In this document: positions 1 to 64,000 of the stretch, in pieces
Layout of the letters: every line of letters begins with the position of its first letter
Position numbering within the stretch: the first letter of the stretch is position 1
IMG/VR virus record: IMGVR_UViG_3300031466_000110
Direction: 5' to 3' (one strand)
DNA: 64,000 nucleotides
From: a virus
Translations under genes and position numbers: made by a program
Notes under the pieces: model-generated
The model's database searches: none
The model's input: only the letters and a program-made list of their open reading frames with translations
What the model was told of the DNA's origin: nothing

Positions 1-132
1 CAGAAACTTGTGCATCCGCGAATAAAACTTATTCATGATGCGGAGTTTTTCCGCCTTGGGTTTTCGGGAGTACCAGAAGAAGATACCCCCAATGGGGATG
101 AATAAGGCGTAGATGATCAACAAAGCTTCCAT
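1..132 (-). CDS. Partial membrane protein running off the window, possibly TadB-like
   Basis: ATG overlaps the stop of the CpaF-like gene (TAATG). Reads MEALLIIYALFIPIGGIFFWYSRKPKAEK..., open to the window edge, with an N-terminal TM helix. TadB assignment is from position only. Confidence 0.55.
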   Translation of the reverse strand, partial: MEALLIIYALFIPIGGIFFWYSRKPKAEKLRIMNKFYSRMHKFL

Positions 133-2294
133 TACGTCTCGACACCTCCAGTGAAGAAGTCGAGCATAACTACATGGTCTTCGTCAATGTCGTTCGGAAG
201 ACCCGGAGTCAACTCATCGCTGGTGTCATTAGAAACCAAACGTTTCTTATGCTCTTCGTCAGCCATAATTTCCTGACGCAGATACTCGATCATGTCATCA
301 GTAAGCATTTCCTCCATATCCGCTTGTTGGGCAGTAGCCGACAAGCCTTGCAAAATCGGAGAGTCGGTATTCTGCTCTTTTGCCGCTTTCAAGCGATAAT
401 GATCGAGAACCGAAAGCGCCACTGGATCTTCCACAACCTGCCCATCCGCCAATGGTTTGCGGCGTCCCCAGTTAGCCAACATGAACTTATCGAACTCCTC
501 GACTTCATGCCCCAAATTATCACGGATAATTTTCTCCAATCGAGGAGAAATACGTTCCACCGCGTAATAAGTCTTCGTTTTCGTATCATATCGCAAGATA
601 TCCTGCGTAATGAAGGTGACCGCCGCTGTGCGTCGAGTGTAATACTCGCGTTGCATAACGGCTTGCGAATACGCCACATTATTCGGATCAATCTCAGGAA
701 GCGGCTGAACCTCCAAGAGCGGGATAATTTCCGTAATCCGCTCAATATAACGCTGACCTTCGGCGTTGTAATCCAAATGGATATCGAAGTTGACAACTTC
801 GAGGATCTGCGCCGTTGCCGTATCCATCGTAAAGCCACCCGCGTTAACCAGCGAGTTCCGCAGAGTATATACCAACTTCTCAGCGGTGTTCGCGTGGTGA
901 GAGAAGATGGTAAACATCGATGCGGTCATACCCATTTGAATCATCCGCGCCGCAACCTCGTCAGTTGCGACCTCACCGACCAACGAAACAGCGGCGTCAG
1001 ATTTCTTCAGAGCGTCCTGAAGCTCCGTAGCAGTAACGTGCGTCGTCTCCTGAACAGAAAGGATGTTACGATTCGGATAAATTTCCCGCAAGTACAACTC
1101 AGGAGCCATTTCCAAGACCCGGATGGTCAAACGCGGATCAATATAACGAATGATCGAGGACATCAGCGTGGTCTTACCGGAACCTTGACGCCCAGTTACC
1201 CCGCACGTCATCTTGCCCTTGATCAAGAACTTGATCAAGTTAATAACCAAATCGCCGTTAACGGTATAATCCTTGATAATAAGCTTCTCAGGTGTCGGAT
1301 CAGAAATGGTGAACTTCCGAACAAAGACCGCCCAGTACTCAGAAGCCGGAGGTCGAAGTGCCAAGACGCGGGATTTGTCATACATAGTATTGACCAAATA
1401 CCCCCGCTTCGCTGTGAGCGCACCCGGATTGTTATAACGAGCGATAAGCTGTACGACCCGACGAACTTCGTCTTCACTACCAAAGGACATGAAGCGGAAA
1501 TGGATGTACTTCCCTTTGTAATACACCCAGACCGAATCCGTCGCTTTGAACGTCCCAGCATTATAAGCATTCAAGTTCGTCATAATACTACCGGAAGTAC
1601 CAATATTGAAGCCGTTGATGTCCATCTCACGTAAGGTGTCAAGGATACCAAAGCCCGCATACTGCTGATACACCAAGATCGCCAAGAGGTCGATTTGCTC
1701 ATCTATCGTAAGCTTGAAGTCCTCTTGCGTATAAATGGAGATCAGTTCCTCGCGAGAAAAATAATAGTTCTGCAGATTCCCGTTCTCATCATAGCGCTCG
1801 CGGTCGAGATTGTACTTAGTAATAATGGCTTCAAGAGCTTTCTTCCCAAGTTGCTGATTGTTCTCATCCAGCATGCGCTTATACTTATACAACAGGATCT
1901 CGAAAATGACATGGTCGGACGGAACCAAACCATCCGACAGACCAAGCAAGTCCGTGACCCGATGATGCGGTACATTATTAGCGATAAAAGAACGGATCAA
2001 CTCAATGACAATAATCTTCGCAGAGTCAATACCATAAACGCAGTTCTTCAAAGCATCATTAATCCGAGCTTTACGCCGATACAACATATTGAACTCCGCT
2101 TCCGAAAGACCAAGAGAGTAATCCTCTTTAACGAGTTCTACCATTTCATGCTTAACCGCTTCCAGAAGCTCTTCCATTGTGTTGTACTCTTCCTCCGGGA
2201 TAAACTCCGTCCGGGATTTAGAGATGTAATACACCACAATGAGAGCGATGACAAAACCAACAATACTCGCTATCGTTAAGACGGTGTTCAACAT
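132..2294 (-). CDS. CpaF/TadA/VirB11-family secretion ATPase with N-terminal TM helix
   Basis: Walker A GRQGSGKTT, Asp box VLEMAPEL, Walker B SLVGEV, His box SHHAN; RBS GGGGGTG. Confidence 0.88.
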   Translation of the reverse strand: MLNTVLTIASIVGFVIALIVVYYISKSRTEFIPEEEYNTMEELLEAVKHEMVELVKEDYSLGLSEAEFNMLYRRKARINDALKNCVYGIDSAKIIVIELIRSFIANNVPHHRVTDLLGLSDGLVPSDHVIFEILLYKYKRMLDENNQQLGKKALEAIITKYNLDRERYDENGNLQNYYFSREELISIYTQEDFKLTIDEQIDLLAILVYQQYAGFGILDTLREMDINGFNIGTSGSIMTNLNAYNAGTFKATDSVWVYYKGKYIHFRFMSFGSEDEVRRVVQLIARYNNPGALTAKRGYLVNTMYDKSRVLALRPPASEYWAVFVRKFTISDPTPEKLIIKDYTVNGDLVINLIKFLIKGKMTCGVTGRQGSGKTTLMSSIIRYIDPRLTIRVLEMAPELYLREIYPNRNILSVQETTHVTATELQDALKKSDAAVSLVGEVATDEVAARMIQMGMTASMFTIFSHHANTAEKLVYTLRNSLVNAGGFTMDTATAQILEVVNFDIHLDYNAEGQRYIERITEIIPLLEVQPLPEIDPNNVAYSQAVMQREYYTRRTAAVTFITQDILRYDTKTKTYYAVERISPRLEKIIRDNLGHEVEEFDKFMLANWGRRKPLADGQVVEDPVALSVLDHYRLKAAKEQNTDSPILQGLSATAQQADMEEMLTDDMIEYLRQEIMADEEHKKRLVSNDTSDELTPGLPNDIDEDHVVMLDFFTGGVET

Positions 2295-2297
2295 CGG

Positions 2298-3092
2298 TTA
2301 AACACCCCCGCGTGACTTCAAGATACGATTTCGAAGTTTAACCACGGAGTTCGAGAGAGCCATATACCCCTTATACACGTCAATAGAGAGTGCATTTTTG
2401 TTTTTGCCGTTGATAAACACCAACGGGAGCTTTCCATTGTTACAACCCCAACGTACCCACGAATTCTCACGAATGAGATGAAGCGGAGTTTTTACCTCCA
2501 AGAAGTTGGTGATAATTTTAGGCTTCTTCATCACAACAGGGTCGTAACGATTACAACAGAGCAAAAGTCTCTTACCCCGAAGGGTACGTTCATTATCCTT
2601 CAACCACTGCTTAAACAACTTAAGCTCCAAGAAATCCGGCGTAATATTCAGCACGACAATATGGGATTTAGCTATAATGGCGCTGGCATTATCCTCCGAA
2701 AGTGGAGTGTCCACATCAATAACCTTATACTCATAAGGCGACTCCGCATCTGCCATATACGCCAAGAGCGTACCCATATCATACGGCGTGAACAGATTAT
2801 CGAAATTGGTGAACACGTCCGTGTAGTCACCGAACTTCGTACAATAATCCGCCACATCCTCTGGCTTCAAAGCACCCTCCCGAAGAAGCTTGACCAACTG
2901 AGTTGAAGTATTGGTCTTATCATCGAGAAGCTTCAAACCCATATAGGTTTGAAACGAATCTGAAAGCGATGACGTATGCGTCAAAAAGACACGACGCTTA
3001 GTCTCAGCCAAAGCCATCGACAACATCATCGCTGTAACCGTCGCTCCATTACGACGAGTATGTGGCGCAAGAACCGAAATTGTGACTGGCAT
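2298..3092 (-). CDS. MinD/ParA/CpaE(TadZ)-like protein with deviant P-loop
   Basis: N-terminal ISVLAPHTRRNGATVTA..LSMALA in P-loop position, YKVIDVDT strand; directly upstream of CpaF. Confidence 0.65.
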   Translation of the reverse strand: MPVTISVLAPHTRRNGATVTAMMLSMALAETKRRVFLTHTSSLSDSFQTYMGLKLLDDKTNTSTQLVKLLREGALKPEDVADYCTKFGDYTDVFTNFDNLFTPYDMGTLLAYMADAESPYEYKVIDVDTPLSEDNASAIIAKSHIVVLNITPDFLELKLFKQWLKDNERTLRGKRLLLCCNRYDPVVMKKPKIITNFLEVKTPLHLIRENSWVRWGCNNGKLPLVFINGKNKNALSIDVYKGYMALSNSVVKLRNRILKSRGGV

Positions 3093-3095
3093 ACG

Positions 3096-3680
3096 TTACT
3101 CCTTTCTAGCCAAAAGCTTGACTATAGTTTTCGACTCCAACCCCAACACTTTCCCAAAAAGTGTAGTGACGACTGCCACAGTTGCCTGATCCTCTAACGG
3201 AAGGAACTTTCGATAATCCTCACAATTGTAAATATACGCCAAAAGCGACGGAGTCGGAGTAATTTTCGGATACTCCAAATTCTTTGCCTTTGTCAGAGAA
3301 ATGAAGACCCGCATGAACTCCTCATTATTCGGGAAATTCCCCACCGTGGTATCCACAAAATCAAAACCCCGATTTACCCCTGATAGGGCTACTACACGCT
3401 CATAACCCTGCGGTATAAAATCATTGGACACCACCACAAGGTACTCGAAGGGTTCATTGAGCGATTGAACCGTCTCCGTAACCACCTCTTGAGTTACAAG
3501 CGGAACGACGCGAATGGTGATATTGTCATTCTCAAACTCCAACGAAAAGTCATCGTCGAAACGGCGGAACGCTGGTTCGTCCGTCACAACCAGCGTCTTC
3601 CCAAGGAATTTCAAACATTGAAGAAGCGGGTAGACAACCGGACGCTTGTCTACCCCACCAATTACCGCTAATGTCTTCAT
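3096..3680 (-). CDS. Hypothetical protein in Tad-like operon
   Basis: 194-aa ORF, RBS AGGGGGT, 3-bp spacing to neighbour. Confidence 0.7.
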   Translation of the reverse strand: MKTLAVIGGVDKRPVVYPLLQCLKFLGKTLVVTDEPAFRRFDDDFSLEFENDNITIRVVPLVTQEVVTETVQSLNEPFEYLVVVSNDFIPQGYERVVALSGVNRGFDFVDTTVGNFPNNEEFMRVFISLTKAKNLEYPKITPTPSLLAYIYNCEDYRKFLPLEDQATVAVVTTLFGKVLGLESKTIVKLLARKE

Positions 3681-3698
3681 GCCTAAACCCCCTACTTA

Positions 3699-4616
3699 TT
3701 AACGATTAGCGCGAGCTTCTTCCATCTCCCGCTTGGTTTCCTCAGCTTGGAATGCACGATCCGCCGCCGAAATAAGCGATGCGAACTGCTGTCTTCCACG
3801 AACGAGAGTTTGCTCCAGCTCTTGCTGACTTTTGAACGTCGACATACCACTAAGGGATTGGTCGATATCCGAACGACGTTGAAGCATATCTGCTTTAATC
3901 GCTTCAAGCAAGTTCGGATCGGCTTGAGCGATAGCCAAAATGTTAGTAGCAACAGGGTAATATACGTCCGCCGCACGTTGAGCGCCACCTTCCAAATACT
4001 CAACTGCATATAGCGAAGTACCCGGATAAACAAGAGAGTCAATCAGCATAGAGTTGTAAGTGTGGATGTCCTTCGAGCTGAGAACAAGCTTCAATACCCC
4101 CGCATTGATAGAGTGAACTCGTTTGCGAGAAAGGGCTATAAAGTCTTCACCCATTGGAAGGGTAATCCGAACGTCTACATATGAACCCGGCTTCAACCCT
4201 ACTGGAATGTTATTCAACACCACGTCAACCAAACGAAGATCATCCGTCAGCGGCTCGTCATACACCATATCCGGAGAAATGATCGTACCAGCGGCAAGGT
4301 CAACTTTATAATATTTACCCACCAGCTCCTCGAAAGAAGTAAGCATATTCGCCGCCGCACCAACCGGAACCAAAACTTCATGGAAGTCCGTTTCCTGAAC
4401 CTGTTTCCCCATCTTCACATCAGAAGACAAAGCATACACCGGAATAAGCTGACCGATACTGTCCAAATCCGACTGCAACCTTGCGATCTCAGAGTCCTTT
4501 TGTTCAATAGTCTTGGTGGTTTTGTCCCAATAAAAATACCCCGCCCCTCCAATAACCAACCAACTGAGAACCAAAGATAGCGTCAAAATCCCTTTCACAC
4601 TCTTTAGAAACGCCAT
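3699..4616 (-). CDS. SAF-domain Flp pilus assembly protein (CpaB/RcpC-like)
   Basis: N-terminal TM, short coiled coil, SAF-like VYALSSDVKMGKQV...DLAAGTIISPDM, and LKPGSYVDVRI motif typical of CpaB. Confidence 0.72.
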   Translation of the reverse strand: MAFLKSVKGILTLSLVLSWLVIGGAGYFYWDKTTKTIEQKDSEIARLQSDLDSIGQLIPVYALSSDVKMGKQVQETDFHEVLVPVGAAANMLTSFEELVGKYYKVDLAAGTIISPDMVYDEPLTDDLRLVDVVLNNIPVGLKPGSYVDVRITLPMGEDFIALSRKRVHSINAGVLKLVLSSKDIHTYNSMLIDSLVYPGTSLYAVEYLEGGAQRAADVYYPVATNILAIAQADPNLLEAIKADMLQRRSDIDQSLSGMSTFKSQQELEQTLVRGRQQFASLISAADRAFQAEETKREMEEARANR

Positions 4617-4639
4617 GTACTTTTCCCTCCAAACCCGAA

Positions 4640-5215
4640 TTAAAATACTTCCTCTAAGTAGTCCTGCAAGGTGGGCAAAACCACACCTTCCTTCACTTCC
4701 CCCGCAAAAATAACGGTACTGAAGACCAGCACCCGAACGAGATTTCTATCCTTACTTAAATAAAATTCAATAAATTGAGATGTGACTGCTTCAGAAACTA
4801 CCGTGTATCCTTGATCTCGAAGAAAGTTTAGATACTTGGCACTTGTCAACAAATCCGCTTCCCACGAATAGGGTGTATCTGTTTCCAAGGTCGTAATATC
4901 AAAAGACTCCTCCGTCTCAGGAAGAACTAAGAGGGGATTGGATTTACGAACCACCGAAGTCAGAAACTTCTGTTCCACCCCATCCTTATAGAGCGCTGTA
5001 CCATATCCGGGATAAGCGCGAAGCTCGTATACCCCCTCTTCATTGGTGTACCGGAGAGCTACCTCGTAATCGAGAACAACTTCACCCTCCTCTGCATTCC
5101 CATTAAGACAGTACAGCATTACCCCCAAAGTAAGAAAAAGCAGGGGGGCGAGTACCATCGTCCAAAACCACCACGAAGCTCGACGTGGGGTTTTCACGTC
5201 CCCTGTTTCCGACAT
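4640..5215 (-). CDS. Membrane-anchored hypothetical protein
   Basis: One TM helix near the N-terminus; ATG at 5215 follows GGGGGTGAG (ORF track starts at 5233). Confidence 0.7.
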   Translation of the reverse strand: MSETGDVKTPRRASWWFWTMVLAPLLFLTLGVMLYCLNGNAEEGEVVLDYEVALRYTNEEGVYELRAYPGYGTALYKDGVEQKFLTSVVRKSNPLLVLPETEESFDITTLETDTPYSWEADLLTSAKYLNFLRDQGYTVVSEAVTSQFIEFYLSKDRNLVRVLVFSTVIFAGEVKEGVVLPTLQDYLEEVF

Positions 5216-5216
5216 C

Positions 5217-6602
5217 TTACTCACCCCCATCAATTTTCAAAAACTCACGCATACTGCTTGCCGAAGGAAGCGAACTATCCGAGGATTCAGAATTGTTGGA
5301 ATGCATCGAATTTGGAGTAGACATAGGTGCAGAAGACCCCGAGGAATTCGCGGTGCTTTCCCCCTCGTACCGAATCGTAGGCTGATCCGAGCGCATCGAA
5401 TCCAACAATGAATCCCAGTCTCGCTTCGAAATCTTAGGTGCAGGAACTTCATACCCCTCCTCCAGCTCCAGATCAACAGCCCCATCCGGCACTTCGCCAT
5501 CACGAATATAGATTTGCTCAGAAGAACCAGAAGAACCACCAGTATCTGTAGTATGGAGTGGCTTGTCCATAATAGCGGAAACCAAAGCTTCCGTCTGCTC
5601 GTTGCGCTCCTCAAGATTACGGCTAAGGTAATCCTTCAACGCATTTGCTCCCATTTTCCCAAAGAAATAGATCGGATCTACACTCTCACCATCCAAATGA
5701 ACCTCAAAGTGCAGATGCGCACCGGTAACCCGACCCGTATCTCCGACCGTACCAATACGATCATACTGCTTTACAGCTTGTCCCGGCTCGACTTCAATTT
5801 CATCCAAGTGCATATACTTAGTTACAAGCCCATTTCCATGATCAATAACGATCACATTACCCCCTCGCTCAGAACGATAGGTGTCCGCTACCGTCCCGTT
5901 CCAAGCCGCAAGAACTGGAGTTCCAACAGGAGCGCCAAGATCGATACCACGATGCATGGCAAGAGTCCCATTGAACGGATCAGCGCGAAGCCCATAAATA
6001 GACGTAAGATGAAAATTACCGAACGCCGGAGACTTCAAAGACGAACCGACATCTCCAAGAGATTGGTAGGTTTGCACCTCTTCCTCAATAGCTTGAATGT
6101 CTTCCACCAAAGACTCCCACTCATTAGGCACGACATCAAGCCGCAGAACTTCCCCAACCTCCTTAACTTGCGTCAACTCATGACGCTTAGTTTGAATCGC
6201 AGAATACCCCGCTAAGACCTCTCGCACCGAAGCGCCAGAAGTAAAGCGATTAGCAAAATCCTTCTGGAGAGCCTGTAATTCTCGCCCCAAGGCGTCGCGT
6301 TTCCGTTTAGGAGCTTCGACCAAGTCCTCCAAAGAAACATTTTGCATCATTTTTGCCACATTATTTCTGTACTCAGTTCGATACCAGTTCAACCAGATTT
6401 CAGACTTCTCTTCCTCCGAATATTTCGTATCTAAACGATCCTTACCCTGCAGTTCCCGAAGATCATCCACAGTGTAAGCATACGCCGGAAAATTTAACTG
6501 CGAAGTTACCAAAAGCGAAGTGACAATGGTCAACGCCATCTTTTTGTTCTGCTTTTTACGCTTTTTCTGCAAGCGCTGTCTTGCCTTCCTCGAAGTTCGC
6601 AT
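5217..6602 (-). CDS. M23-family metallopeptidase (LytM/NlpD-like peptidoglycan hydrolase)
   Basis: HRGID (HxxxD) and HLHFEV (HxH) motifs; basic N-terminus plus TM; coiled-coil stalk; Ser-rich tail. Confidence 0.9.
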   Translation of the reverse strand: MRTSRKARQRLQKKRKKQNKKMALTIVTSLLVTSQLNFPAYAYTVDDLRELQGKDRLDTKYSEEEKSEIWLNWYRTEYRNNVAKMMQNVSLEDLVEAPKRKRDALGRELQALQKDFANRFTSGASVREVLAGYSAIQTKRHELTQVKEVGEVLRLDVVPNEWESLVEDIQAIEEEVQTYQSLGDVGSSLKSPAFGNFHLTSIYGLRADPFNGTLAMHRGIDLGAPVGTPVLAAWNGTVADTYRSERGGNVIVIDHGNGLVTKYMHLDEIEVEPGQAVKQYDRIGTVGDTGRVTGAHLHFEVHLDGESVDPIYFFGKMGANALKDYLSRNLEERNEQTEALVSAIMDKPLHTTDTGGSSGSSEQIYIRDGEVPDGAVDLELEEGYEVPAPKISKRDWDSLLDSMRSDQPTIRYEGESTANSSGSSAPMSTPNSMHSNNSESSDSSLPSASSMREFLKIDGGE

Positions 6603-51070: not shown

Positions 51071-51085
51071 TTAGAACCCTCCTTC

Positions 51086-51223: not shown

Positions 51224-51226
51224 AAA

Positions 51227-53290: not shown

Positions 53291-53293
53291 GTG

Positions 53294-54787: not shown

Positions 54788-54800
54788 TTTATCGCCACCC

Positions 54801-57146: not shown

Positions 57147-57161
57147 ATGAATACCCCCTCG

Positions 57162-58190
57162 TTAATCCAACGAAATCTCCTCGTCCGGTTGCTCATTTTT
57201 ACGCTTAAACCAAGTGCGCTTCCGTTTGAGCTTCCGCTCCCCAGCAGATACACGCATATTGGCTCTCTTCTCTTCAGAAGTAAGGTTAAAGACGGTCTTA
57301 ACTCCGTCCTTTTCTCCCCAAATTACTGTGAGCGGTGCGCTCAACTCGCGACTATTAAGTACATTCTCAATAGCATTATTGGGTGAGAAGGACTCCAAGT
57401 TAAACACCGTTTGCACTAGTTGACCAATCATATACTTGTTAAGGTACCGAATACGCGCAAAGTTCGCCCGCTTAAAACCAGACACCGCTTCACGGATATC
57501 CAAAAGAGCGTCATAATCGTCCTTCCGCCAATACAAACAGTACACATCGTAAGTAGAAAATGCCCGTTGCATCGCTTTCTCCAGATAATCGTACTTCATA
57601 GTGATGAGGTAACGAAGATTCTTCCCATCAATCGAAGCGGCGGCGCTAAAAAGGTTATTCAAACGAGAATCTTTTCCGATGCTGTCCATGTAATCAATAT
57701 GCGTAAACTCAATTTCTGCCTTCGCCAATTCCTTATAAACATCCGCTATAGCCTGATGATGGTCAAAAACATAATCGTCTTCCTTACCGACGATTACCCC
57801 CTTATCGAGAGCGATGAAGACCCCACGATAACCGTTACGGAACGTTACCACATACGGAAAGGTGTTCGATACCTCCACAATCGACCACAACAAATTTGTT
57901 CCGAACATATAGTTCGACTCTTCCAACGCCGCCCGCTTCTCCCGATAATAATGCTCCCGGAAAAGAAGAAAACGCATGACGTAAATGTACGCGATAGTCA
58001 CTACCACCATCCAAAGCAGAGTTTGCCCAAGCGTGGACGCGGCAAGCGTAAGAAACATAAGAAAACCCCAAACCAACGTAAGCCCAATCCCAAGAAATAC
58101 CTTAGAAGCTGTACTAGGCTTTCCACGCCGCTTCGAGTCAAAAGTCAAGGGTATTTCAATATGAGAGGTATTCTCGCGAGTAGGTTCCAT
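57162..58190 (-). CDS. Two-TM membrane protein of the transfer block
   Basis: Two N-terminal TM helices and a soluble domain. Confidence 0.7.
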   Translation of the reverse strand: MEPTRENTSHIEIPLTFDSKRRGKPSTASKVFLGIGLTLVWGFLMFLTLAASTLGQTLLWMVVVTIAYIYVMRFLLFREHYYREKRAALEESNYMFGTNLLWSIVEVSNTFPYVVTFRNGYRGVFIALDKGVIVGKEDDYVFDHHQAIADVYKELAKAEIEFTHIDYMDSIGKDSRLNNLFSAAASIDGKNLRYLITMKYDYLEKAMQRAFSTYDVYCLYWRKDDYDALLDIREAVSGFKRANFARIRYLNKYMIGQLVQTVFNLESFSPNNAIENVLNSRELSAPLTVIWGEKDGVKTVFNLTSEEKRANMRVSAGERKLKRKRTWFKRKNEQPDEEISLD

Positions 58191-58202
58191 CCCTTATCCT
58201 CC

Positions 58203-58715
58203 TCAAACAAACCTAAAGTCTTCAATAATACCGTTGATAACTGTCACCAACACCCGTGCAGTATAGGTTTGCCCACCCTTCTCAAAATTCAAAAGGACAT
58301 AGTAGTCCGTAAACAGCGGATCACCAAGCTGATACTGCACCTCGACAAACGAAACCTTAGAAGCCCCAATGAAACGATAGGGATCATATGACTTACCATA
58401 TAACGAGCTTACAACGTTTTCCGACAATTTTGGACTTGACTTAGAAGATTGATACGATGTTGCATCCGAAACCAAGAAAAAGTTACGTACCTCCGTAATC
58501 ACCGTCTGCTTGTGATCCTCATACAACAAAAAGTGCGGATTCATGGTGGAGTTAACATAAGCGATTTGCTTATTCTCCCATACCCCCATAACCACCACCC
58601 ACACCATGATCACAAACGACACTGAAAACACAACCCAATACAAGATCTTCTTCCATCGTTTCTTAGGTTGCATAGAAATGTTTCTATCTTCAACAACCGA
58701 AGATTTATCGACCAT
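58203..58715 (-). CDS. Single-pass membrane protein (VirB8/NTF2-like candidate)
   Basis: Basic stretch, TM helix, about 120-aa extracellular domain. Confidence 0.65.
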   Translation of the reverse strand: MVDKSSVVEDRNISMQPKKRWKKILYWVVFSVSFVIMVWVVVMGVWENKQIAYVNSTMNPHFLLYEDHKQTVITEVRNFFLVSDATSYQSSKSSPKLSENVVSSLYGKSYDPYRFIGASKVSFVEVQYQLGDPLFTDYYVLLNFEKGGQTYTARVLVTVINGIIEDFRFV

Positions 58716-59151
58716 CGCGTAATACCCCCACTTCGATCTTTTCTAAACCTTGAGGTGTCCAAATAGCCTCTACACGATATCTGAAGTCCGCCGCACTAAA
58801 CAGCATAAAATGACGAACCCCATTATACCCGAATGCCGTGAAAAAGGCTTCATACGCCGGAGTGTCGTAGGGGAGAGTCCCCAAAATATTTCGCACTTCT
58901 TCCGAAAAAGAGAACCCTTCTGGGATAGTTAAATTTCCAGAGTTCTCTCCAGTAGTAACGAAGTCAATCAAAACATCACGATTTTTCTCAGCTAATCTCT
59001 TAGCAGAGAGGTAGGAATCTAATGTACTTTCCACAACTCCATTATATTCCTCAATCTCACGCGCAAGAGTTTCCGAAGATGCCCCACAAGCCGAGAGTAG
59101 TAGAGGGAGCGCCCCGAGTACAAGAACAAACAGTAAACGTCTCACGTTCAT
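58705..59151 (-). CDS. Small lipoprotein
   Basis: Lipobox LLSAC; RBS AGGAGGT. Confidence 0.7.
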   Translation of the reverse strand: MNVRRLLFVLVLGALPLLLSACGASSETLAREIEEYNGVVESTLDSYLSAKRLAEKNRDVLIDFVTTGENSGNLTIPEGFSFSEEVRNILGTLPYDTPAYEAFFTAFGYNGVRHFMLFSAADFRYRVEAIWTPQGLEKIEVGVLRDGR

Positions 59152-59181
59152 ACCTCCTAATAGAAAAGGTGTTCTAGAAAC

Positions 59182-59634
59182 CTAGAACACCTTGTATAAA
59201 TTTGCTATGCGTCCTTCTTCAAAGATGATCAAGGTTGTAAACTGGCGATCCCCGGTTGGGGTACGCTGAACCAAATCCGCCTTAAAGACGAAATCCCCGG
59301 AAGGAGAAGGTTGACCAACAATACGTTTGACCGCCAGTGGATAGTAAGTTCCTTCCTGATAGGAAGAAAAGTAGTTCAACCAAAAGTCCGATGTCATGCG
59401 AGAGAAGTAACGCTGTCGCTTAGACTGGAAGTCTTCTTCCGAACTAAAATATAAGATGTCGGGTAACTCCAAAACCAACGACTTTGCCGTGAAATAAGCA
59501 GTCAACTCATGCTTCGTCCTATTTAATTCCGCTCGGTAGGGTGAGCCGACAATCAAGTCATAAGCGATAAACGCCACGACTATAACAAACGCCACCACGC
59601 TAGACAGCGTGAATAACCGTCTCCACGTCAACAA
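59182..59634 (-). CDS. Single-pass membrane protein
   Basis: TTG 59634 after AAGGAGGGTG; TM helix then about 110-aa domain. Confidence 0.65.
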   Translation of the reverse strand: MLTWRRLFTLSSVVAFVIVVAFIAYDLIVGSPYRAELNRTKHELTAYFTAKSLVLELPDILYFSSEEDFQSKRQRYFSRMTSDFWLNYFSSYQEGTYYPLAVKRIVGQPSPSGDFVFKADLVQRTPTGDRQFTTLIIFEEGRIANLYKVF

Positions 59635-60031
59635 TCTCACCCTCCTTATACCAAATGAAAATAGATGCCGACTTACCATTTGAGTTGTAAAAATGAATCA
59701 TTTGTTCAACTACACCCGTAGTGTCATCAAGAAACAAATAGTTTTCAATATATGGATCGAAGGGTACGTCTGGTGACTGATATTTGTTGATATGCTCAAC
59801 GAATGCTCTAATATTGTCCTCGTACCCCGCATAAGGGGAGTTGGACACCGAGAACGTATTCGAGTTTAAGTAATGGATAACCTCCAAATAAAACTCCTTC
59901 GAAGGGGCTTCTGCCACCGCATAAGCCGACAAAAGAGACTGTACTTTCTCATTCTCAGCGGTATTACCCCCTTCACACCCCACCAATACACACAAGAGCA
60001 GGAGAACAAACACCAAACGAACCCACTTCAT
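59600..60031 (-). CDS. Small lipoprotein
   Basis: Lipobox VLVGC. Confidence 0.7.
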   Translation of the reverse strand: MKWVRLVFVLLLLCVLVGCEGGNTAENEKVQSLLSAYAVAEAPSKEFYLEVIHYLNSNTFSVSNSPYAGYEDNIRAFVEHINKYQSPDVPFDPYIENYLFLDDTTGVVEQMIHFYNSNGKSASIFIWYKEGEIVDVETVIHAV

Positions 60032-60792
60032 TGTCGCACCTCAAAACGAGTGAACTTATACCCCTCGAAATACAACCTGACCAATAGGGGTTTTTGCGTC
60101 ACCGACGACGCGAAAGTCGCATCAAAGAAACCAGAGGACTTATTCTCCCTCCGTAAGAAGGAGTCCTTAAAATTGTAATGATAGTCAAGGTCATTTTTCA
60201 TCATCTCGAAGGTGATAGGAACAAGGGATTTCGAGATAACGTACTCAGACCCATCATACACAACAACGTCCCAACCCTCGTCATTAAAGTGCAAATCATT
60301 AACCCGAATTACCCAATCCCCATTTTGATCAAACAAACGAGGATCGAACATACCGAAGGTTTCTTTGTTCAAGTCGATATCCTCAATATCAGAATCTGGA
60401 ACCTCGGTGTCCTCTTCATCGGAAGGGATGCTATCCAAATCAGGCATCGCTTCAATTTCCGAACCAGACATACTCTCGCTTTCCAACCACTGCGTCATAT
60501 TAAAAACCTGCTCGTCCTTCGATTCCAAGTCCCGATAATGTTGCTCATAAGCAACAAACACACCCGGATCAAAGAAAGAAGAATCCACTGTCAACTGCAA
60601 ATTAGGGTCGTACCAACCGTAGAAAGAAGCCGCCAAAGACTTAGCGAAAAGCAAACCATTTTCCTGCAGTGCATCAACCTTTTGCTTTTCCAAATCCCCA
60701 AGCAGTTTTGCCATTGTAACCCCTGCTACCAATAGCGTGAGAAAACTAATGATAAGCACCCACAGCAAATACTTCCGAGACAACAGCTCCAT
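60028..60792 (-). CDS. Single-pass membrane protein with acidic insert
   Basis: N-terminal TM; RBS GAGGAGGT. Confidence 0.7.
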   Translation of the reverse strand: MELLSRKYLLWVLIISFLTLLVAGVTMAKLLGDLEKQKVDALQENGLLFAKSLAASFYGWYDPNLQLTVDSSFFDPGVFVAYEQHYRDLESKDEQVFNMTQWLESESMSGSEIEAMPDLDSIPSDEEDTEVPDSDIEDIDLNKETFGMFDPRLFDQNGDWVIRVNDLHFNDEGWDVVVYDGSEYVISKSLVPITFEMMKNDLDYHYNFKDSFLRRENKSSGFFDATFASSVTQKPLLVRLYFEGYKFTRFEVRQ

Positions 60793-60805
60793 CTCAAATA
60801 CCTCC

Positions 60806-63043
60806 TCAATATACTAAGAGTACATAGTTTGCGGCTGAACTCGCTTTCCGCAGTTCCTCACGACCCCACAACTTAAGGGAATCCGATACATCAGACGAAG
60901 AATACATTCGATATTTCTTCGTACCATTTTCCTCGATTAACTTATTAATAACCACAAAGTGATCCGAACCCCTTGAAGCGATTGGAGGATCGGAGAATTT
61001 AGCGATAACCAAACCCCCATTCCGCAAAGTTTCATCGATCTTATCCCACGTACTCGTTGCACGAATATTCGAAACTTCCTTCACCTTCAAACCGAACAAC
61101 CCAAAAAGAGTCGGTAACCCAGAACGCTGTAGCCCATCACTGCTAAGCGAATTTGTCATATACATAAGCGCCGCCGTTTCAGGGGGATTAATCCCGATCC
61201 GCGTCTTTGCCGTGAGGACGTAAGCAACAGAATAGATCATACAACCATTACGAGAGAACGTCCATCTGCCATTCTTATCCCGACGAGTACTCCAAGGTTG
61301 CCCACCATACAACTCGATATCAGCACTCTGACGTTGGAAAGGCACTTGATAAGGGTCAGATTCTAAAGGATAGGCTTCACGCAAAGCCTCAGCTTTAGAA
61401 TCCTCCCCTTGCTCATATGCAGAAACACCAAAGTAGTTAATCAAATTATTGATGATAGTTACTGCATCATCCGGCAACTGCGATTTCTTTACCTCTTCAT
61501 AATAACGACGAGTAGTGTAGGTTTGCCCGCCAATCGTAAAGGTCGCGTTACCCTCGGGATTCTTACCCCCGTAAACGATTTCGGAGCGGAGCGGTACGAC
61601 CTTCTTTTCAAGGATTTCAATAATAGCTTTTCCTTGAATGAAAGAGTTAAACCCATAATGGAAGTTCAAAGTGCGAGTTTGCATGTTACCGGAGTAGCCC
61701 GACATTTTCTTAAGCTCTTGCCAAGCCTCCTCCATCGCTACACGCCGACTTTCAGGGTAAGTCGACATATTTGCTTCTGACATAATGAACTTCCAAACAG
61801 GCTCCTCCAAAACCCTACCATTAAGCTTCATTCTAATAGAATTATCACCCAACTTCAACTCCGTGTGATGCTTCCACTTCGGATCATTCATACCCTCGCT
61901 ACCAATAAAAATCTTACGGAACTTGTACTCCGGTACAGCAGGAAAGGCGTCTTCATCCTTATTTGTCAAAGCTACAAGTTCCCAATTATAGAGACTGCGA
62001 GTATCGTCCGAATCACCAGAAACATAGTAAAGAGCGCACCAAAAATTGAAATAATGTTCGTACTCCGTTTGAGATACCCCATGATAATGGGCTTGAAGAA
62101 GGAAATAGTAAAGCATAGTGTAAAGCTCCATACGGCGTTTCTCACTAATACCCCAAGCCTCGATGACCTTCATTAAACGGTCTTCATGCGCACCCAATTC
62201 GCCCTTATTCTTAAGGAAACTATTTGCATAGTCAGCCTTCCCAGCGATGTGCGCAACCGACATAAAAGTCGCCCAAGGATAGTAGTTTGCAGGATACGAA
62301 TACGACCCCGTAGGTGAGGGATATAACCGATAAAGGGCATCTACAACGTCCTTACCCGCAACAGACGTGTAGTTTCGCGGCGTATCATTCTTACTAATAC
62401 CAAAGTTCACAAAACCAGCATTACTTTCCGTCGCCATATACGGGTGTTGGAAAACGTTTTTATTTGGGAGATCCTTTTCAGGATAAATAACCATAGACTG
62501 CTCGGTACTCAACTTCCCCAAAAACATAGCTATGTCAACATCAATGCTAGGAGTTGGCAGATCAAGAACACGCTTTTTGGTGTCATACCCCGTAATCGCT
62601 TGGTTGATAAGAATCCCCAAACGATAGATGTTCTGCTCCAACGGGGTAAGATTTGCCATGTTTGCATTCAACTCTTCTACCGACCAAGAGAGCTTATTAC
62701 CTTTGATCCCATTGTGTCCAGTGACAACCGTCTCTTCCTCCACAGGAAACGTCAAATCAGGAGGTACCACATCAGGAGTTACGGAGAAAAAAGAAACGAT
62801 TGATAGATAAATACCTAAAATTACGACTATAAGTATCCCTGCAAGGAGAGCAAATAGGAAGACTTGCGCTAAAACCAGAAAAATTGGCATCATCTCGAAA
62901 GCCGCCAATACTACAAGCACACTTTCCAAGATGGCTTGTCCAAAAGAGCGCTTTGCCTTCTCAACCTGACCCTTCGAATTCTTCTTAAACAATGAAGTGA
63001 CCCGAATAAAAAGAGACTTTATAAGTAAAAGAAAACTCAGCAT
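60806..63043 (-). CDS. Membrane-anchored protein with C-terminal C39-like (papain-fold) peptidase domain
   Basis: N-terminal TM helices; PFQRQS...NGCMIYSVA (Q, Cys) and SDHFVVI (His). Confidence 0.65.
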   Translation of the reverse strand: MLSFLLLIKSLFIRVTSLFKKNSKGQVEKAKRSFGQAILESVLVVLAAFEMMPIFLVLAQVFLFALLAGILIVVILGIYLSIVSFFSVTPDVVPPDLTFPVEEETVVTGHNGIKGNKLSWSVEELNANMANLTPLEQNIYRLGILINQAITGYDTKKRVLDLPTPSIDVDIAMFLGKLSTEQSMVIYPEKDLPNKNVFQHPYMATESNAGFVNFGISKNDTPRNYTSVAGKDVVDALYRLYPSPTGSYSYPANYYPWATFMSVAHIAGKADYANSFLKNKGELGAHEDRLMKVIEAWGISEKRRMELYTMLYYFLLQAHYHGVSQTEYEHYFNFWCALYYVSGDSDDTRSLYNWELVALTNKDEDAFPAVPEYKFRKIFIGSEGMNDPKWKHHTELKLGDNSIRMKLNGRVLEEPVWKFIMSEANMSTYPESRRVAMEEAWQELKKMSGYSGNMQTRTLNFHYGFNSFIQGKAIIEILEKKVVPLRSEIVYGGKNPEGNATFTIGGQTYTTRRYYEEVKKSQLPDDAVTIINNLINYFGVSAYEQGEDSKAEALREAYPLESDPYQVPFQRQSADIELYGGQPWSTRRDKNGRWTFSRNGCMIYSVAYVLTAKTRIGINPPETAALMYMTNSLSSDGLQRSGLPTLFGLFGLKVKEVSNIRATSTWDKIDETLRNGGLVIAKFSDPPIASRGSDHFVVINKLIEENGTKKYRMYSSSDVSDSLKLWGREELRKASSAANYVLLVY

Positions 63044-63063
63044 ACAAACACCCCTCTAAGAAA

Positions 63064-63091
63064 TGGAGGGGCAGACAGAGCTACCCCTCCA
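63064..63091. terminator. Intergenic hairpin, possible terminator
   Basis: TGGAGGGG-12nt-CCCCTCCA; short T tract. Confidence 0.4.
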
Positions 63092-63106
63092 CTAACGGGT
63101 TCAAAC

Positions 63107-63988
63107 TTATTTCTTTTTCTTCCGACGCTTCTTCGACTTAACCTTACCAGAAGCGACTTGCGCCTGTTTATTCGCTTCTCGACGAGCGGCTTCATCAGCC
63201 TTCCGTTGCTCCTTCTCCTTCAGATACTTTTCGAACTCTTCCGGGGAACGCAACTTCATGCTGATAGAAATATCGCCCGCCTTTGAACGAGTAACCCTCA
63301 TTTGCTTCATATATGGATCATTGAAATCCATACCCCGTGCTGGTTCATCGAACGGAGGTACAGCAGGTTGACGAGGTTGCGGCTCGACTGCAGGTTGTGA
63401 TGCCTCTACCGATGTCGGCTCTGCCGAAATCTCTGGCTGGTTAGACTGACTTGCCAACTTATCAATTTCTTCCGTCGTCATACCTGCAGATGGTGCAGAA
63501 TCCGCCTGATTATCCGTTTTACGAGCCTGATCCTCCACAGAACGCGCCGTAAGCCAACGAGCAGTACGACGAATCAAACGACGCTTCGGCTTCTCAGGCG
63601 AAACTTTCAACCGCCCCTTATACCGAACCGAAGGACGACCAAACCCAAAAACTCGACCAAACCCACGCAAAGCACCACCCGTAACCTTTTGCAGTAAACC
63701 AGCGCTGGCGTCTGCCACCATACCCACCACAGAACCAAGCAACGCTGAACCCTCATCCCGAATAGTACGGAAGAACTTGAGTGCCAGAATGAACATGACA
63801 AAGATGTAAATGAGCGAAACCACGATCATAATGAGCAACGTGATAGTCGGGTCAGTCATGCCAATCGTCGGCAAGCGGGAACCAACGTACCCCGTCAAAC
63901 CTTCGCCCATAATCATCGAGACGATAATGGCGAAGACCACTGTCGCTACCATGAAGCTCAAAACTGGCACAAAGATTTTCTTCATCAC
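63107..63988 (-). CDS. Membrane protein with Pro/Gln-rich and basic tail
   Basis: Two to three N-terminal hydrophobic helices. Confidence 0.7.
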   Translation of the reverse strand: MMKKIFVPVLSFMVATVVFAIIVSMIMGEGLTGYVGSRLPTIGMTDPTITLLIMIVVSLIYIFVMFILALKFFRTIRDEGSALLGSVVGMVADASAGLLQKVTGGALRGFGRVFGFGRPSVRYKGRLKVSPEKPKRRLIRRTARWLTARSVEDQARKTDNQADSAPSAGMTTEEIDKLASQSNQPEISAEPTSVEASQPAVEPQPRQPAVPPFDEPARGMDFNDPYMKQMRVTRSKAGDISISMKLRSPEEFEKYLKEKEQRKADEAARREANKQAQVASGKVKSKKRRKKKK

Positions 63989-64000
63989 GTGAGAAAGAAC

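What the first reader, a model, noticed from the sequence alone, without database searches (positions are those of the whole stretch)
1..64000. Giant conjugative element carrying a near-autonomous, phage-like DNA replication and repair toolkit but no virion genes
SEEN: ligase, RuvC-like, CHC2 finger, DnaB, DnaC-like, both topoisomerase II subunits, SF2 helicase, SprT and TK sit between a Tad-like block and a T4SS-like block. All genes are on one strand for 64 kb, and most others have no recognisable family. KNOWN: typical plasmids and ICEs rely on the host replisome, while such gene sets are typical of large phages and some clostridial/bacillar megaplasmids. INFERENCE: this is part of a very large (well over 64 kb) self-replicating, self-transmissible replicon of a poorly described class.
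Basis: partly seen in the sequence, partly recalled or inferred. Interest (0 to 1): 0.7.

Follow-up and report, generated by a model that had tools for sequence, protein, structure and literature searches.

The report
Distant relative of giant plasmid pXO16
This window is the middle of a roughly 273-kb, probably circular plasmid-like element from an uncultured Bacillales-type bacterium, and its genes line up in the same order as those of pXO16, the puzzling 350-kb conjugative plasmid of Bacillus thuringiensis, so that odd plasmid type is an old family rather than a one-off.

Summary
All 52 sizeable ORFs lie on the minus strand. Pfam or fold evidence confirms the NAD ligase, RuvC-like nuclease, CHC2 finger, DnaB-like helicase, both topoisomerase II subunits, SNF2 helicase, SprT, TK, a VirB4-like and an FtsK-like ATPase, and a CpaF/SAF block. 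The "DnaC-like" label fails: that protein has a Rad50/SMC-type head fold without a P-loop.

The window matches a 229-kb metagenome contig exactly. Contigs from other samples sum to 272-273.5 kb with different start points, so a circle of about 273 kb is likely. The flanks add PolA, a Toprim primase core, a clamp-loader ATPase, NrdIEF, SbcCD-like genes, a RecD2-like helicase, ArdC and sortase.

The key result is kinship with pXO16. Thirty-six proteins (19-44% identity) match pXO16 (NC_018516) with no change of order (Spearman 0.9999). pXO16 also has every gene on one strand. GGGGTA is the most over-represented hexamer in both, almost wholly on the gene strand (430:17 and 658:5). pXO16 conjugates in the laboratory, has no known relaxase and has no capsid, portal or terminase match.

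About 109 kb of the element was not seen. Earlier scan notes called it a giant plasmid; none shown to me named pXO16.

The parts
132..2294 (-). 720-aa secretion ATPase of the CpaF/VirB11/PilB superfamily, with an N-terminal membrane helix. It is the motor of the Tad-like block, which continues beyond the window start.
   Evidence: Pfam T2SSE, E 1.2e-6, 27.9 bits against a cut-off of 24.9. N-terminal hydrophobic helix seen. pXO16 has no PF00437 match.
2298..6602 (-). Accessory genes of the Tad-like block: 264-aa and 194-aa proteins, a 305-aa SAF-domain (CpaB-like) protein, a 197-aa membrane protein and a 461-aa M23 peptidase.
   Evidence: Pfam SAF E 1.9e-5 and Peptidase_M23 E 3.6e-32. No pXO16 homologues.
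6715..15306 (-). 2863-aa secreted glycine-rich giant protein; candidate surface adhesin.
   Evidence: Pfam ALK_LTK_GRD E 3.4e-58. PHROG families of unknown function match the same domain. It has a signal peptide and no LPXTG motif.
16270..18355 (-). R2K-clade ATP-grasp protein (16270-17064) and NAD-dependent DNA ligase (17096-18355).
   Evidence: Pfam R2K_2 E 3.5e-15 and DNA_ligase_aden E 1.3e-14. The ligase is 37% identical to the pXO16 ligase, at the syntenic position.
18670..19719 (-). 349-aa RuvC-like nuclease (RNase H fold) with an extra C-terminal domain.
   Evidence: AlphaFold2 pLDDT 79. Foldseek best hits are RuvC (6lw3_A E 1.3e-7, TM on target 0.70). D60, E114, D200 and D203 are conserved. 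There is a pXO16 homologue at the syntenic position.
19737..20321 (-). 194-aa stand-alone CHC2 primase zinc-ribbon protein. Its likely catalytic partner is a separate Toprim_2 protein about 71 kb downstream on the element.
   Evidence: Pfam Zn_ribbon_DnaG E 1.3e-13. Toprim_2 277-aa gene at L202:16629-17462. Both have syntenic pXO16 homologues.
20730..21527 (-). EAL-domain protein; putative c-di-GMP phosphodiesterase.
   Evidence: Pfam EAL E 2.3e-43.
22286..28108 (-). ParM-like partition ATPase (27254-28108), small proteins, and a 985-aa ATPase of the SPP1 gene-32 family (22286-25243).
   Evidence: Pfam ALP_N E 1.9e-21. phrog_5156 E 1.7e-137. 36% identity to Alicyclobacillus phage MMB025, and 26-27% to SPP1-like phages and Bacillus cereus-group plasmids.
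29081..33326 (-). 256-aa conserved protein, metallo-beta-lactamase-fold protein, and 704-aa DnaB-like helicase.
   Evidence: Pfam Lactamase_B E 1.5e-9 and DnaB_C E 1.3e-7. The 256-aa protein and the helicase have syntenic pXO16 homologues.
33426..34256 (-). 276-aa protein between the gyrA-like and dnaB-like genes. It has an ABC-ATPase-head-like fold with no P-loop.
   Evidence: Only 46 cluster representatives among 1.84 billion proteins. pLDDT 89. Foldseek best hits are PtuA, SbcC, Rad50 and SMC heads, TM about 0.44.
34256..40213 (-). Type IIA topoisomerase: A subunit (34256-36415, lacking the C-terminal beta-pinwheel) and B subunit (38111-40213), with two small ORFs between them.
   Evidence: Pfam DNA_topoisoIV E 9.5e-80; GyrB_C, Toprim and DNA_gyraseB. 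30% and 36% identity to the pXO16 pair in the same order. A clade of about 80 metagenome-only clusters lacks PF03989.
41802..45721 (-). SNF2-family helicase (41802-43442), SprT-like metalloprotease with a zinc ribbon (44124-45029) and thymidine kinase (45101-45721).
   Evidence: Pfam SNF2-rel_dom, Helicase_C, SprT-like and TK. The helicase is 33% identical to its pXO16 homologue at the syntenic position.
45743..63043 (-). Transfer (T4SS-like) block: 745-aa, 254-aa and several small membrane proteins; a 342-aa protein; a 781-aa protein; a 497-aa coiled-coil protein; the 687-aa VirB4-like ATPase (51227-53290); the 810-aa FtsK/SpoIIIE-like ATPase (48638-51070); then 382-aa and 572-aa unknowns.
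   Evidence: Pfam DUF87 and FtsK_SpoIIIE. NCBIfam VirB4-like models E 6e-9 and 2e-7, and EssC/FtsK models, all below cut-off. 40%, 38% and 29% identity to pXO16 ORFs in the same order. In PLSDB the VirB4-like protein matches only 21 Bacillus plasmids, and it matches no phage record.
1..64000 (-). One-strand polarity of the whole window: genes, G-over-C skew and the hexamer GGGGTA all on the same strand.
   Evidence: Over the 164 kb examined GGGGTA occurs 430 times on the gene strand and 17 on the other, 7.7 times expectation, and ranks first of all hexamers.

Best explanation
What it is. The window is the central part of an extrachromosomal, probably circular megaplasmid of about 273 kb. It belongs to the same lineage as pXO16 of Bacillus thuringiensis serovar israelensis.

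Replication (inferred). Like pXO16, the element replicates largely with its own machinery:
- a family A polymerase with proofreading;
- a clamp-loader ATPase;
- a DnaB-like helicase;
- a primase split into a CHC2 zinc-finger protein and a separate Toprim protein;
- an NAD ligase;
- a type IIA topoisomerase;
- NrdIEF and TK for nucleotide supply;
- RuvC-like, SbcCD-like, Fpg and RecD2-like repair enzymes.
Every gene, the GC skew and a dense GGGGTA word share one strand. That pattern suggests a single replication fork running in the direction of the genes.

Segregation (inferred). A ParM-like actin ATPase most likely partitions the copies.

Transfer (inferred from pXO16). The element probably moves between cells by an atypical Gram-positive conjugation system homologous to the pXO16 transfer genes. 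That system comprises a VirB4-like ATPase, an FtsK/SpoIIIE-like ATPase acting as coupling motor, and very large envelope proteins. No recognisable relaxase is present. A secreted giant protein and a Tad-like type IV filament, both absent from pXO16, probably mediate cell contact.

Status of each step. Shown here: gene content, homology, gene order, strand polarity, and absence of virion genes in what was examined. Inferred: circularity, unidirectional replication, conjugative function and host.
For: Kinship with pXO16.
- Thirty-six element proteins match pXO16 ORFs at 19-44% identity, with no adjacent order inversion and Spearman 0.9999. The match wraps around pXO16's numbering origin.
- The polymerase is 41% identical to pXO16's at E = 0. 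The VirB4-like ATPase is 40% and the FtsK-like ATPase 38% identical.
- All 454 annotated pXO16 features lie on one strand. The element's called genes over coordinates 67-231 kb lie on one strand, apart from two small ORFs.
- GGGGTA is the top-ranked hexamer in both replicons, at 430:17 and 658:5.

What is known of pXO16. It conjugates in the laboratory, transfers single-stranded DNA, has a 25-kb tip locus with two ATPases and a hydrolase, and has no identified relaxase or oriT (PMC9673590, PMC6199540).

Not a phage, as far as seen.
- The complete pXO16 record has no TerL, Terminase_6N, HK97 capsid or portal match.
- IMG/VR holds no close relative, and the VirB4-like protein matches no phage record.

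Size and topology. Two contigs from one sample sum to about 272 kb, a further JGI contig is 272,853 bp, and an ENA contig of 273,538 bp (98.9% identical over 20.8 kb) starts about 24.7 kb later.

Plasmid-type accessory genes. ArdC-like antirestriction, sortase and ParM-like genes fit a plasmid lifestyle.
Against: - About 109 kb of the element (coordinates 1-67 kb and 231-273 kb) was not read, so virion genes, a relaxase, an integrase or a strand switch could lie there.
- Circularity rests on contig lengths and offsets, not on a closed junction.
- The T4SS assignments are weak by curated thresholds: the NCBIfam scores are far below their cut-offs.
- I could not read the primary tip-locus paper. 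That the homologous pXO16 ORFs are the tip genes is therefore my inference from the review's description.
- Only 36 of 155 ORFs match pXO16. The Tad-like block, giant protein, ParM module, RNR, TK, PARP and RT have no counterpart there at the syntenic positions.
- The 985-aa ATPase and several replication genes have phage relatives.
Confidence: 0.8

Rival explanations
1. It is a jumbo phage or a phage-plasmid. The virion module would lie in the unread 109 kb, and the FtsK/HerA-type ATPases would serve DNA packaging rather than conjugation.
For: The replication and nucleotide-metabolism gene set (PolA, topoisomerase II, RNR, TK, SbcCD-like, RuvC-like, split primase) is typical of large phages. 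The 985-aa ATPase belongs to a phage family, phrog_5156, that includes SPP1 gene 32. One-strand coding and many paralogues led the pXO16 authors themselves to write of a 'phage-like nature' (PMC6199540).
Against: No virion family was found in 164 kb, by precomputed Pfam and by PHROGs on seven of the largest proteins. The complete collinear relative pXO16 has no terminase, capsid or portal match and is reported to give no plaques while conjugating efficiently. IMG/VR holds no relative. ArdC, sortase and ParM-like genes fit a plasmid.
Confidence: 0.08
2. It is a member of the Inocle family, the giant extrachromosomal elements of oral Streptococcus.
For: The two are similar in concept: 245-395-kb plasmid-like elements of Bacillota with gyrase, a RecD-like helicase, sortase, VirB4 and VirD4, and mostly unknown genes (PMC12340149).
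Against: Inocles are defined by InoC, which has a PF13814 domain; no such domain appears in the 164 kb examined. They have two replichores with a switch of gene orientation, carry Pol III alpha rather than PolA, and are 24-32% GC. No Inocle sequence was on hand, so homology was not tested directly.
Confidence: 0.04
3. It is an integrated element (ICE or prophage) or a secondary chromosome of the host, not a free plasmid.
For: A 44-aa ORF plus the 488-aa CAP/stalk-domain gene is identical on small contigs next to a chromosomal-type rlmH fragment. That shows exchange with another replicon of the community.
Against: No integrase, tRNA, rRNA or ribosomal protein gene occurs in 164 kb (and the gene tables). 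Contigs from separate assemblies all total about 273 kb with no chromosomal flank, and one is permuted. The relative pXO16 is a circular plasmid.
Confidence: 0.04

Closest known systems
pXO16 (pBTHD789-1, NC_018516.1 / CP003764), the 349.6-kb conjugative plasmid of Bacillus thuringiensis sv. israelensis
   Same: Thirty-six homologous proteins lie in identical order. They include the clamp-loader ATPase, a YdjM-like hydrolase, the 1835-aa envelope protein, the VirB4-like and FtsK-like ATPases, the SNF2 helicase, GyrB, GyrA, the DnaB-like helicase, the CHC2 finger, the RuvC-like nuclease, the ligase, an HNH protein, PolA, an HD protein, the Toprim protein, SbcCD-like proteins and a DnaJ-domain protein. 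In both, every gene is on one strand, GC skew keeps one sign, GGGGTA is the top polar hexamer, and no relaxase or virion gene is recognisable.
   Different: Protein identity is only 19-44%. GC is 48% against 33%, and size about 273 kb against 350 kb. The host lineage differs and is uncultured. This element adds a Tad-like filament block, a 2863-aa glycine-rich protein, NrdIEF, TK, PARP, a reverse transcriptase, ArdC and the ParM/SPP1-gp32-like module at non-syntenic places. No counterpart of pXO16's agr locus (LPXTG-type giant adhesins) was seen in the part examined. Conjugation is shown by experiment for pXO16 only.
Unnamed 215-kb plasmids of Bacillus velezensis and B. amyloliquefaciens (NZ_CP076292.1, NZ_CP071971.1), and 136-155-kb plasmids of the B. 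subtilis group
   Same: They carry homologues of PolA (32%), GyrA/B, NrdEF, the clamp loader and the VirB4-like ATPase (25-26%). In the B. velezensis plasmid all matches are on one strand, and GC skew is 0.31-0.37 all the way round.
   Different: The shared genes are not collinear with the element. GGGGTA is not enriched (rank 278). These are more distant relatives, and I found no description of them in the searchable literature.
Inocles, giant extrachromosomal elements of oral Streptococcus (PMC12340149)
   Same: They are giant plasmid-like replicons of Bacillota with their own gyrase, helicases, sortase and VirB4/VirD4, and mostly unknown genes.
   Different: They have the InoC marker, two replichores, Pol III alpha and low GC.
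Tcp conjugation system of Clostridium perfringens pCW3, and the ICEBs1-type Gram-positive T4SS
   Same: They combine an FtsK/SpoIIIE-family coupling ATPase, a VirB4-like ATPase, large membrane proteins and a peptidoglycan hydrolase. The literature likens pXO16 transfer to pCW3.
   Different: No TcpC/VirB8-like, TcpH/VirB6-like or relaxase family is detectable by Pfam or NCBIfam. Matches to VirB4 models are far below their cut-offs.
Replication modules of large Bacillales phages (SPP1 gene 32 family; topoisomerase II of Bacillus phages)
   Same: The 985-aa ATPase matches phrog_5156 over nearly its whole length. The A subunit of the topoisomerase is about 30% identical to those of 160-kb Bacillus phages.
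   Different: Those phages have terminase, portal and capsid genes next to these modules. None was found here.

Membership tests
pXO16-type megaplasmid lineage | Shared backbone proteins in conserved order | tested here: met
   36 blastp pairs, 0 adjacent inversions, Spearman 0.9999; 33 by tblastn.
pXO16-type megaplasmid lineage | All coding sequences in one orientation | tested here: met
   All 52 window ORFs are on the minus strand. Gene tables for coordinates 67-231 kb show only two small opposite-strand ORFs. All 454 pXO16 features lie on one strand. The unread 109 kb is untested.
pXO16-type megaplasmid lineage | Homologues of the two transfer ATPases of the tip locus | tested here: met
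   The 687-aa protein is 40% identical to pXO16 ORF 208,841-210,778, and the 810-aa protein 38% identical to the FtsK/SpoIIIE protein at 204,229-206,559. That these ORFs are the published tip ATPases is inferred from the review.
pXO16-type megaplasmid lineage | TipB cell-wall hydrolase homologue | not tested
   The TipB paper and its coordinates were not readable. The element has an M23 peptidase and a glucosaminidase at other positions.
pXO16-type megaplasmid lineage | Strand-polar, highly over-represented GGGGTA | tested here: met
   Element 430:17 at 7.7 times expectation; pXO16 658:5 at 10.8 times; first-ranked hexamer in both. This feature is my own observation, not a published criterion.
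pXO16-type megaplasmid lineage | Circular extrachromosomal replicon | tested here: inconclusive
   Contig totals of 272-273.5 kb in three or more assemblies, one of them offset by about 24.7 kb. No junction sequence was seen.
pXO16-type megaplasmid lineage | Demonstrated conjugative self-transfer with aggregation | not testable with these tools
   This needs a cultured host and mating assays.
Canonical conjugative plasmid or ICE (T4SS plus relaxase) | VirB4-family ATPase | tested here: inconclusive
   Pfam DUF87 E 7.5e-7. NCBIfam VirB4_plasma scores 34 bits against a cut-off of 590, and conju_CD1110 scores 30 bits against 325.
Canonical conjugative plasmid or ICE (T4SS plus relaxase) | Relaxase (MOB family) and oriT | tested here: not met
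   No relaxase Pfam family appears in any called gene of the 164 kb (gene tables). The N-terminal region of the 1204-aa helicase resembles the RecD2 HHH/OB region, as a lead only. Unread regions are untested. oriT was not searched for.
Tailed phage or jumbo phage | Terminase large subunit, portal and major capsid protein | tested here: not met
   None in the 164 kb by Pfam, nor by PHROGs for seven of the largest proteins. None in the complete pXO16 or in the B. velezensis plasmid for TerL. The unread 109 kb is untested.
Inocle | InoC marker (PF13814 replication-relaxation domain), two replichores, Pol III alpha | tested here: not met
   No PF13814 or Pol III alpha in the examined genes. Strand polarity is single over 164 kb. 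No direct sequence comparison was possible.
Tad/Flp type IV filament system | CpaF-type ATPase and CpaB (SAF) protein | tested here: met
   PF00437 above its cut-off and PF08666 at E 1.9e-5.
Tad/Flp type IV filament system | TadB/C platform, Flp-type pilin and prepilin peptidase | tested here: not met
   No Pfam match at E up to 1. Only a 653-aa membrane protein and small proteins with pilin-like N-terminal helices were seen.

The most novel reading that the evidence does not exclude
pXO16-like elements are an ancient and widespread lineage of giant Bacillota replicons written on one strand, standing between phage and plasmid. Their conserved polar word GGGGTA would be read by the element's own split primase, or by the FtsK-like transfer motor. 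That would allow relaxase-independent, very fast conjugation, with immediate priming on the transferred strand. The roughly 80 metagenome-only GyrA-like clusters, on contigs of up to 300-650 kb, would be further members.
Probability: 0.3. Interest if true: 0.8.

Novelty: new member of a known kind. Interest (0 to 1): 0.55.

Why it matters
pXO16 has been studied for almost 40 years as a unique object. It transfers 350 kb within minutes, mobilises plasmids that have no oriT and chromosomal segments of up to 791 kb, and yet has no recognisable replicon type, relaxase or oriT.

A relative at only 19-44% protein identity that keeps the gene order, the one-strand layout and the same polar hexamer shows which parts of pXO16 are conserved. 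It supplies the comparative data that have been missing. Conserved unknown genes next to the two ATPases become candidates for the missing relaxase and channel functions. GGGGTA together with the split primase becomes a testable hypothesis in a tractable Bacillus system.

The result also indicates that such elements occur outside the Bacillus cereus group and go unclassified: MOB-suite types the Bacillus members as non-mobilizable, and IMG/VR holds no close relative.

Tried and rejected
Searches that gave nothing useful:
- Megablast of 25 kb against PLSDB and against phage records found nothing.
- Scans of IMG/VR with the A-subunit protein and with its alignment found only relatives at 38% identity or less, about 30% for near-full-length matches.
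- The single genome-contig scan was swamped by ordinary cellular GyrA/ParC, because the most conserved motifs are generic. It says nothing about whether the family is present in GTDB genomes.
- The metagenome-contig scan with a flank protein found nothing, so that collection seems not to hold these samples.
- One contig look-up was lost because the gene starts with TTG.
- phmmer against PDB sequences gave nothing for the 349-, 276-, 572- and 781-aa proteins.
- Paper searches for the sample accessions and for 'pXO16-like' returned nothing.

Host and habitat remain undetermined:
- NrdE against 401 genomes of one class gave at most 57% identity and no names.
- The nearest named relatives of the CAP/stalk protein are Paenibacillus, at 31-34%.
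- The best phage hit of the 985-aa ATPase is from Alicyclobacillus.
- I can therefore say only 'Bacillales-like'.

Readings rejected:
- The 1204-aa RecD-like protein as a relaxase-helicase: I found no support.
- Treating the GGGGTA asymmetry of the B. velezensis plasmid as shared: its 13:1 ratio is explained by its strong GC skew, and the word is not enriched there.

Full report
**Observation**

The window has about 52 ORFs that tile it, and all are on the minus strand. GC skew keeps one sign across all 64 kb. There is no tRNA and no Rfam RNA.

The DUF87 protein also matches two NCBIfam VirB4-like conjugation ATPase models. The FtsK-like protein matches EssC/FtsK models. All of these scores are far below the curated cut-offs.

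The 'RuvC-like' gene (18670-19719) has no Pfam hit, but it folds as RuvC. The model has pLDDT 79. The best Foldseek hits are RuvC structures, at E 1e-7 and TM 0.70 on the target, and the acidic residues are conserved.

The 'DnaC-like' gene (33426-34256) is not an AAA+ loader. Its confident model (pLDDT 89) resembles Rad50/SMC/PtuA ABC-ATPase heads. The family has no conserved P-loop and only 46 cluster representatives among 1.84 billion proteins.

The Tad-like label is partly supported. There is an ATPase and a SAF protein. Just beyond the window start lie a 653-aa membrane protein and a run of small proteins with pilin-like N-terminal helices. No recognisable TadB/C, Flp pilin or prepilin peptidase was found.

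**Where the window sits**

Exact-protein look-ups place the window on JGI contig Ga0373396_000077 (229,235 bp). It is the reverse complement of positions 95,607-159,606, with no mismatch.

By walking with the twelve look-ups allowed, I read coordinates 67,042-231,336, which is 164 kb. With two small exceptions, every called gene there is on the same strand.

- Upstream of the window lie NrdI/NrdE/NrdF, a DnaX-like clamp-loader ATPase, a YdjM-type hydrolase, and 732-aa and 1835-aa envelope proteins.
- Downstream lie the rest of the filament block, thioredoxin with DsbD, a CAP/stalk-domain protein, NERD, HNH, bactofilin, a glucosaminidase, a PARP-like protein, a reverse transcriptase, a Dam methylase, MecA, sortase and an ArdC-like antirestriction protein.
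- Further downstream lie a 1154-aa family A polymerase with 3'-5' exonuclease, an HD protein, a 1204-aa RecD2-like helicase, a 277-aa Toprim_2 protein, SbcC/SbcD-like proteins, Fpg, a 1309-aa protein and a DnaJ-domain protein.

The lone CHC2 finger in the window has a plausible catalytic partner about 71 kb away. No capsid, terminase, portal, tail, relaxase or integrase family appears in these 164 kb.

**Size and topology**

- In sample 3300033753 two contigs cover coordinates 1-169.9 kb and about 170.4-272.1 kb. The break between them falls at a gene that is also present elsewhere in the community.
- Another JGI contig is 272,853 bp.
- An ENA SPAdes contig is 273,538 bp. It is 98.9% identical over 20.8 kb and starts about 24.7 kb further along.

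A permuted contig of the same total length is what a circle of about 273 kb would give. This is an inference, because I saw no junction. Several assemblies also break at coordinate 229.2 kb, inside a 1.4-kb AT-rich non-coding stretch that has no strong repeats.

**What it is related to**

Nucleotide searches of PLSDB and of phage records find nothing, and IMG/VR holds no close relative.

The A subunit of the topoisomerase defines a clade of about 80 clusters at 31-67% identity. All lack the C-terminal pinwheel, almost all are known only from metagenome assemblies (two also from NCBI records), and some sit on contigs of 300-650 kb.

The decisive lead came from the polymerase. It is 41% identical (E = 0) to the 'DNA polymerase' of the 349.6-kb plasmid found in ten B. 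thuringiensis israelensis records. The same plasmid is also the best PLSDB hit of the A subunit. That plasmid, pBTHD789-1 (NC_018516.1 / CP003764), is pXO16 (PMC6199540, PMC9673590).

I fetched all of it. All 454 annotated features lie on one strand.

A blastp comparison of 155 element ORFs with 457 pXO16 ORFs gives 36 pairs at 19-44% identity. There is no adjacent inversion and Spearman is 0.9999. Element coordinates 69-226 kb map in rising order onto 113-326 kb of the reverse-complemented pXO16, and then wrap to 3 kb.

Eleven of the pairs lie in the window, in this order: the 342-aa protein, the VirB4-like ATPase, the FtsK-like ATPase, the SNF2 helicase, GyrB, GyrA, the DnaB-like helicase, the 256-aa protein, the CHC2 finger, the RuvC-like nuclease and the ligase.

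GGGGTA is the most over-represented hexamer relative to base composition in both replicons, and it lies almost only on the gene strand. The counts are 430:17 in the element (7.7 times expectation, 48% GC) and 658:5 in pXO16 (10.8 times, 33% GC). GC skew keeps one sign right round pXO16.

The VirB4-like protein has relatives in only 21 PLSDB plasmids, all from Bacillus, and in no phage record. The B. velezensis 215-kb plasmid shares 17 proteins and the one-strand layout. It does not share the gene order or the GGGGTA enrichment.

**What is known of pXO16**

The reviews describe it as follows.
- It is a low-copy 350-kb plasmid that transfers in about 4 minutes.
- It mobilises plasmids lacking mob and oriT, and it moves chromosomal segments.
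- Few of its 434 CDS have homologues.
- The common orientation of its CDS and its many paralogues suggested a 'phage-like nature', though no plaques have been obtained.
- It transfers single-stranded DNA by a system distantly related to T4SS, like pCW3.
- Its 25-kb tip locus of 16 CDS holds two ATPases and a hydrolase (TipB).
- Its relaxase and oriT remain unidentified.

My searches of the complete record found no TerL_ATPase, Terminase_6N, HK97 capsid, phage portal or SPP1 portal match, and no T2SSE ATPase. I could not read the primary tip-locus papers. That the pXO16 ORFs homologous to the window's ATPases are the tip ATPases is therefore my inference, drawn from the size and content of that 25-kb stretch.

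**Mechanism**

Homology and gene order show that this is a pXO16-type replicon with its own replisome, topoisomerase, nucleotide supply and repair enzymes, a ParM-like partition ATPase, and a transfer block homologous to that of pXO16.

The following steps are inferred.
- Replication is unidirectional and runs with the genes, because genes, skew and GGGGTA share one strand over all that was seen, and right round pXO16.
- Transfer is conjugative, driven by the VirB4-like and FtsK-like ATPases, without a classical relaxase.
- Cell contact uses the secreted 2863-aa protein and the Tad-like filament. pXO16 lacks both and instead has an agr locus with giant surface proteins and a sortase.

The GGGGTA word lies on the strand that serves as lagging-strand template if forks move with the genes. 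A primase-site role is therefore attractive, given that the split CHC2 and Toprim proteins are conserved. So is a role in priming the transferred strand. Neither role is tested.

**Rivals**

- A jumbo phage or phage-plasmid remains possible only if the unread 109 kb hides a virion module. The complete relative has none.
- Inocles are the nearest recent concept, but they differ in marker gene, polymerase and replichore structure. I could not compare sequences.
- An integrated element or a chromid is unlikely, given the consistent 273-kb totals, the permuted contig and the absence of core genes.

**Novelty and limits**

The specific result appears to be new: I found no mention of 'pXO16-like' elements in the searchable literature. 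That result is a deeply diverged, collinear relative in another, uncultured host, within a large metagenome-only clade, sharing the same polar hexamer.

Earlier notes of this scan on the same contig called it a giant plasmid-like element. They flagged the replisome, the hexamer, the RT array and the envelope proteins. I used them as leads. I verified PolA, Toprim, the clamp loader, the RVT_1 domain and the hexamer counts. I did not verify the DnaN-like, HolA-like and gp32-like calls.

Host and habitat remain undetermined. Weak signs point to Bacillales.

Noticed in passing
whole window; stitched coordinates 67-231 kb; pXO16 L224-L230: GGGGTA is the most over-represented hexamer in both this element (430 on the gene strand, 17 on the other) and pXO16 (658:5), although the two differ in GC content (48% and 33%) and share only 19-44% protein identity. 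It is not enriched in the related B. velezensis 215-kb plasmid. Median spacing is 325 nt in the element and 435 nt in pXO16.
   Followed up: partly
window 22286-28108: A ParM-like gene, small proteins and a 985-aa ATPase form a module. The ATPase belongs to phrog_5156, the SPP1 gene-32 family. The best hit is Alicyclobacillus phage MMB025 at 36%, where the gene also follows annotated partition proteins. The family is also found in 45-100-kb Bacillus cereus-group plasmids. Its function is unknown.
   Followed up: partly
window 33426-34256: A 276-aa protein lies between the gyrA-like and dnaB-like genes. It has an ABC-ATPase-head-like fold but no P-loop, and the family has only 46 cluster representatives among 1.84 billion proteins. 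pXO16 has a 222-aa ORF at the same position with no detectable sequence similarity.
   Followed up: partly
L011:16724-18133 (element coordinate about 176-177.4 kb): A 469-aa protein has WGR, PARP regulatory and PARP catalytic domains, a eukaryote-like poly(ADP-ribose) polymerase architecture. It sits near bactofilin, NERD and HNH genes.
   Followed up: no
L011:10001-11620; L019, L020, L012, L015: A 44-aa ORF plus a 488-aa CAP/Cu_amine_oxidN1 (stalk-domain) gene is identical on small contigs beside an rlmH fragment. Two assemblies of the element break at this point. It is probably shared with the host chromosome or another element. The nearest named relatives are Paenibacillus proteins at 31-34%.
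   Followed up: partly
L197:18282-19427: An ArdC-like protein (ArdcN plus the MPTase-PolyVal metalloprotease domain) is present. This is a typical antirestriction function of conjugative plasmids. I detected no pXO16 homologue.
   Followed up: no
L031:12541-16218: A 420-aa RVT_1 reverse transcriptase is followed by about 480 nt of non-coding sequence, a 349-aa ORF and a Dam-type methylase. Earlier notes describe structured RNA units after the RT.
   Followed up: no
L216:18990-20430 (element coordinate about 228.9-230.3 kb): A 1.4-kb AT-rich stretch (41% GC) has almost no coding sequence, and at least three assemblies end within it. No strong direct or inverted repeats were found. It is a candidate origin, terminus or hypervariable junction.
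   Followed up: partly
L232-L242 (NZ_CP076292.1): The B. velezensis 215-kb plasmid has an extreme GC skew of one sign (0.31-0.37) around the whole circle. All of its matches to element proteins are on one strand. It looks like another one-strand giant replicon, and I found no description of it.
   Followed up: partly
window 20730-21527 and 16270-17064: An EAL-domain protein (c-di-GMP phosphodiesterase type) and an R2K-clade ATP-grasp protein lie among the replication genes. Neither has a pXO16 counterpart.
   Followed up: no
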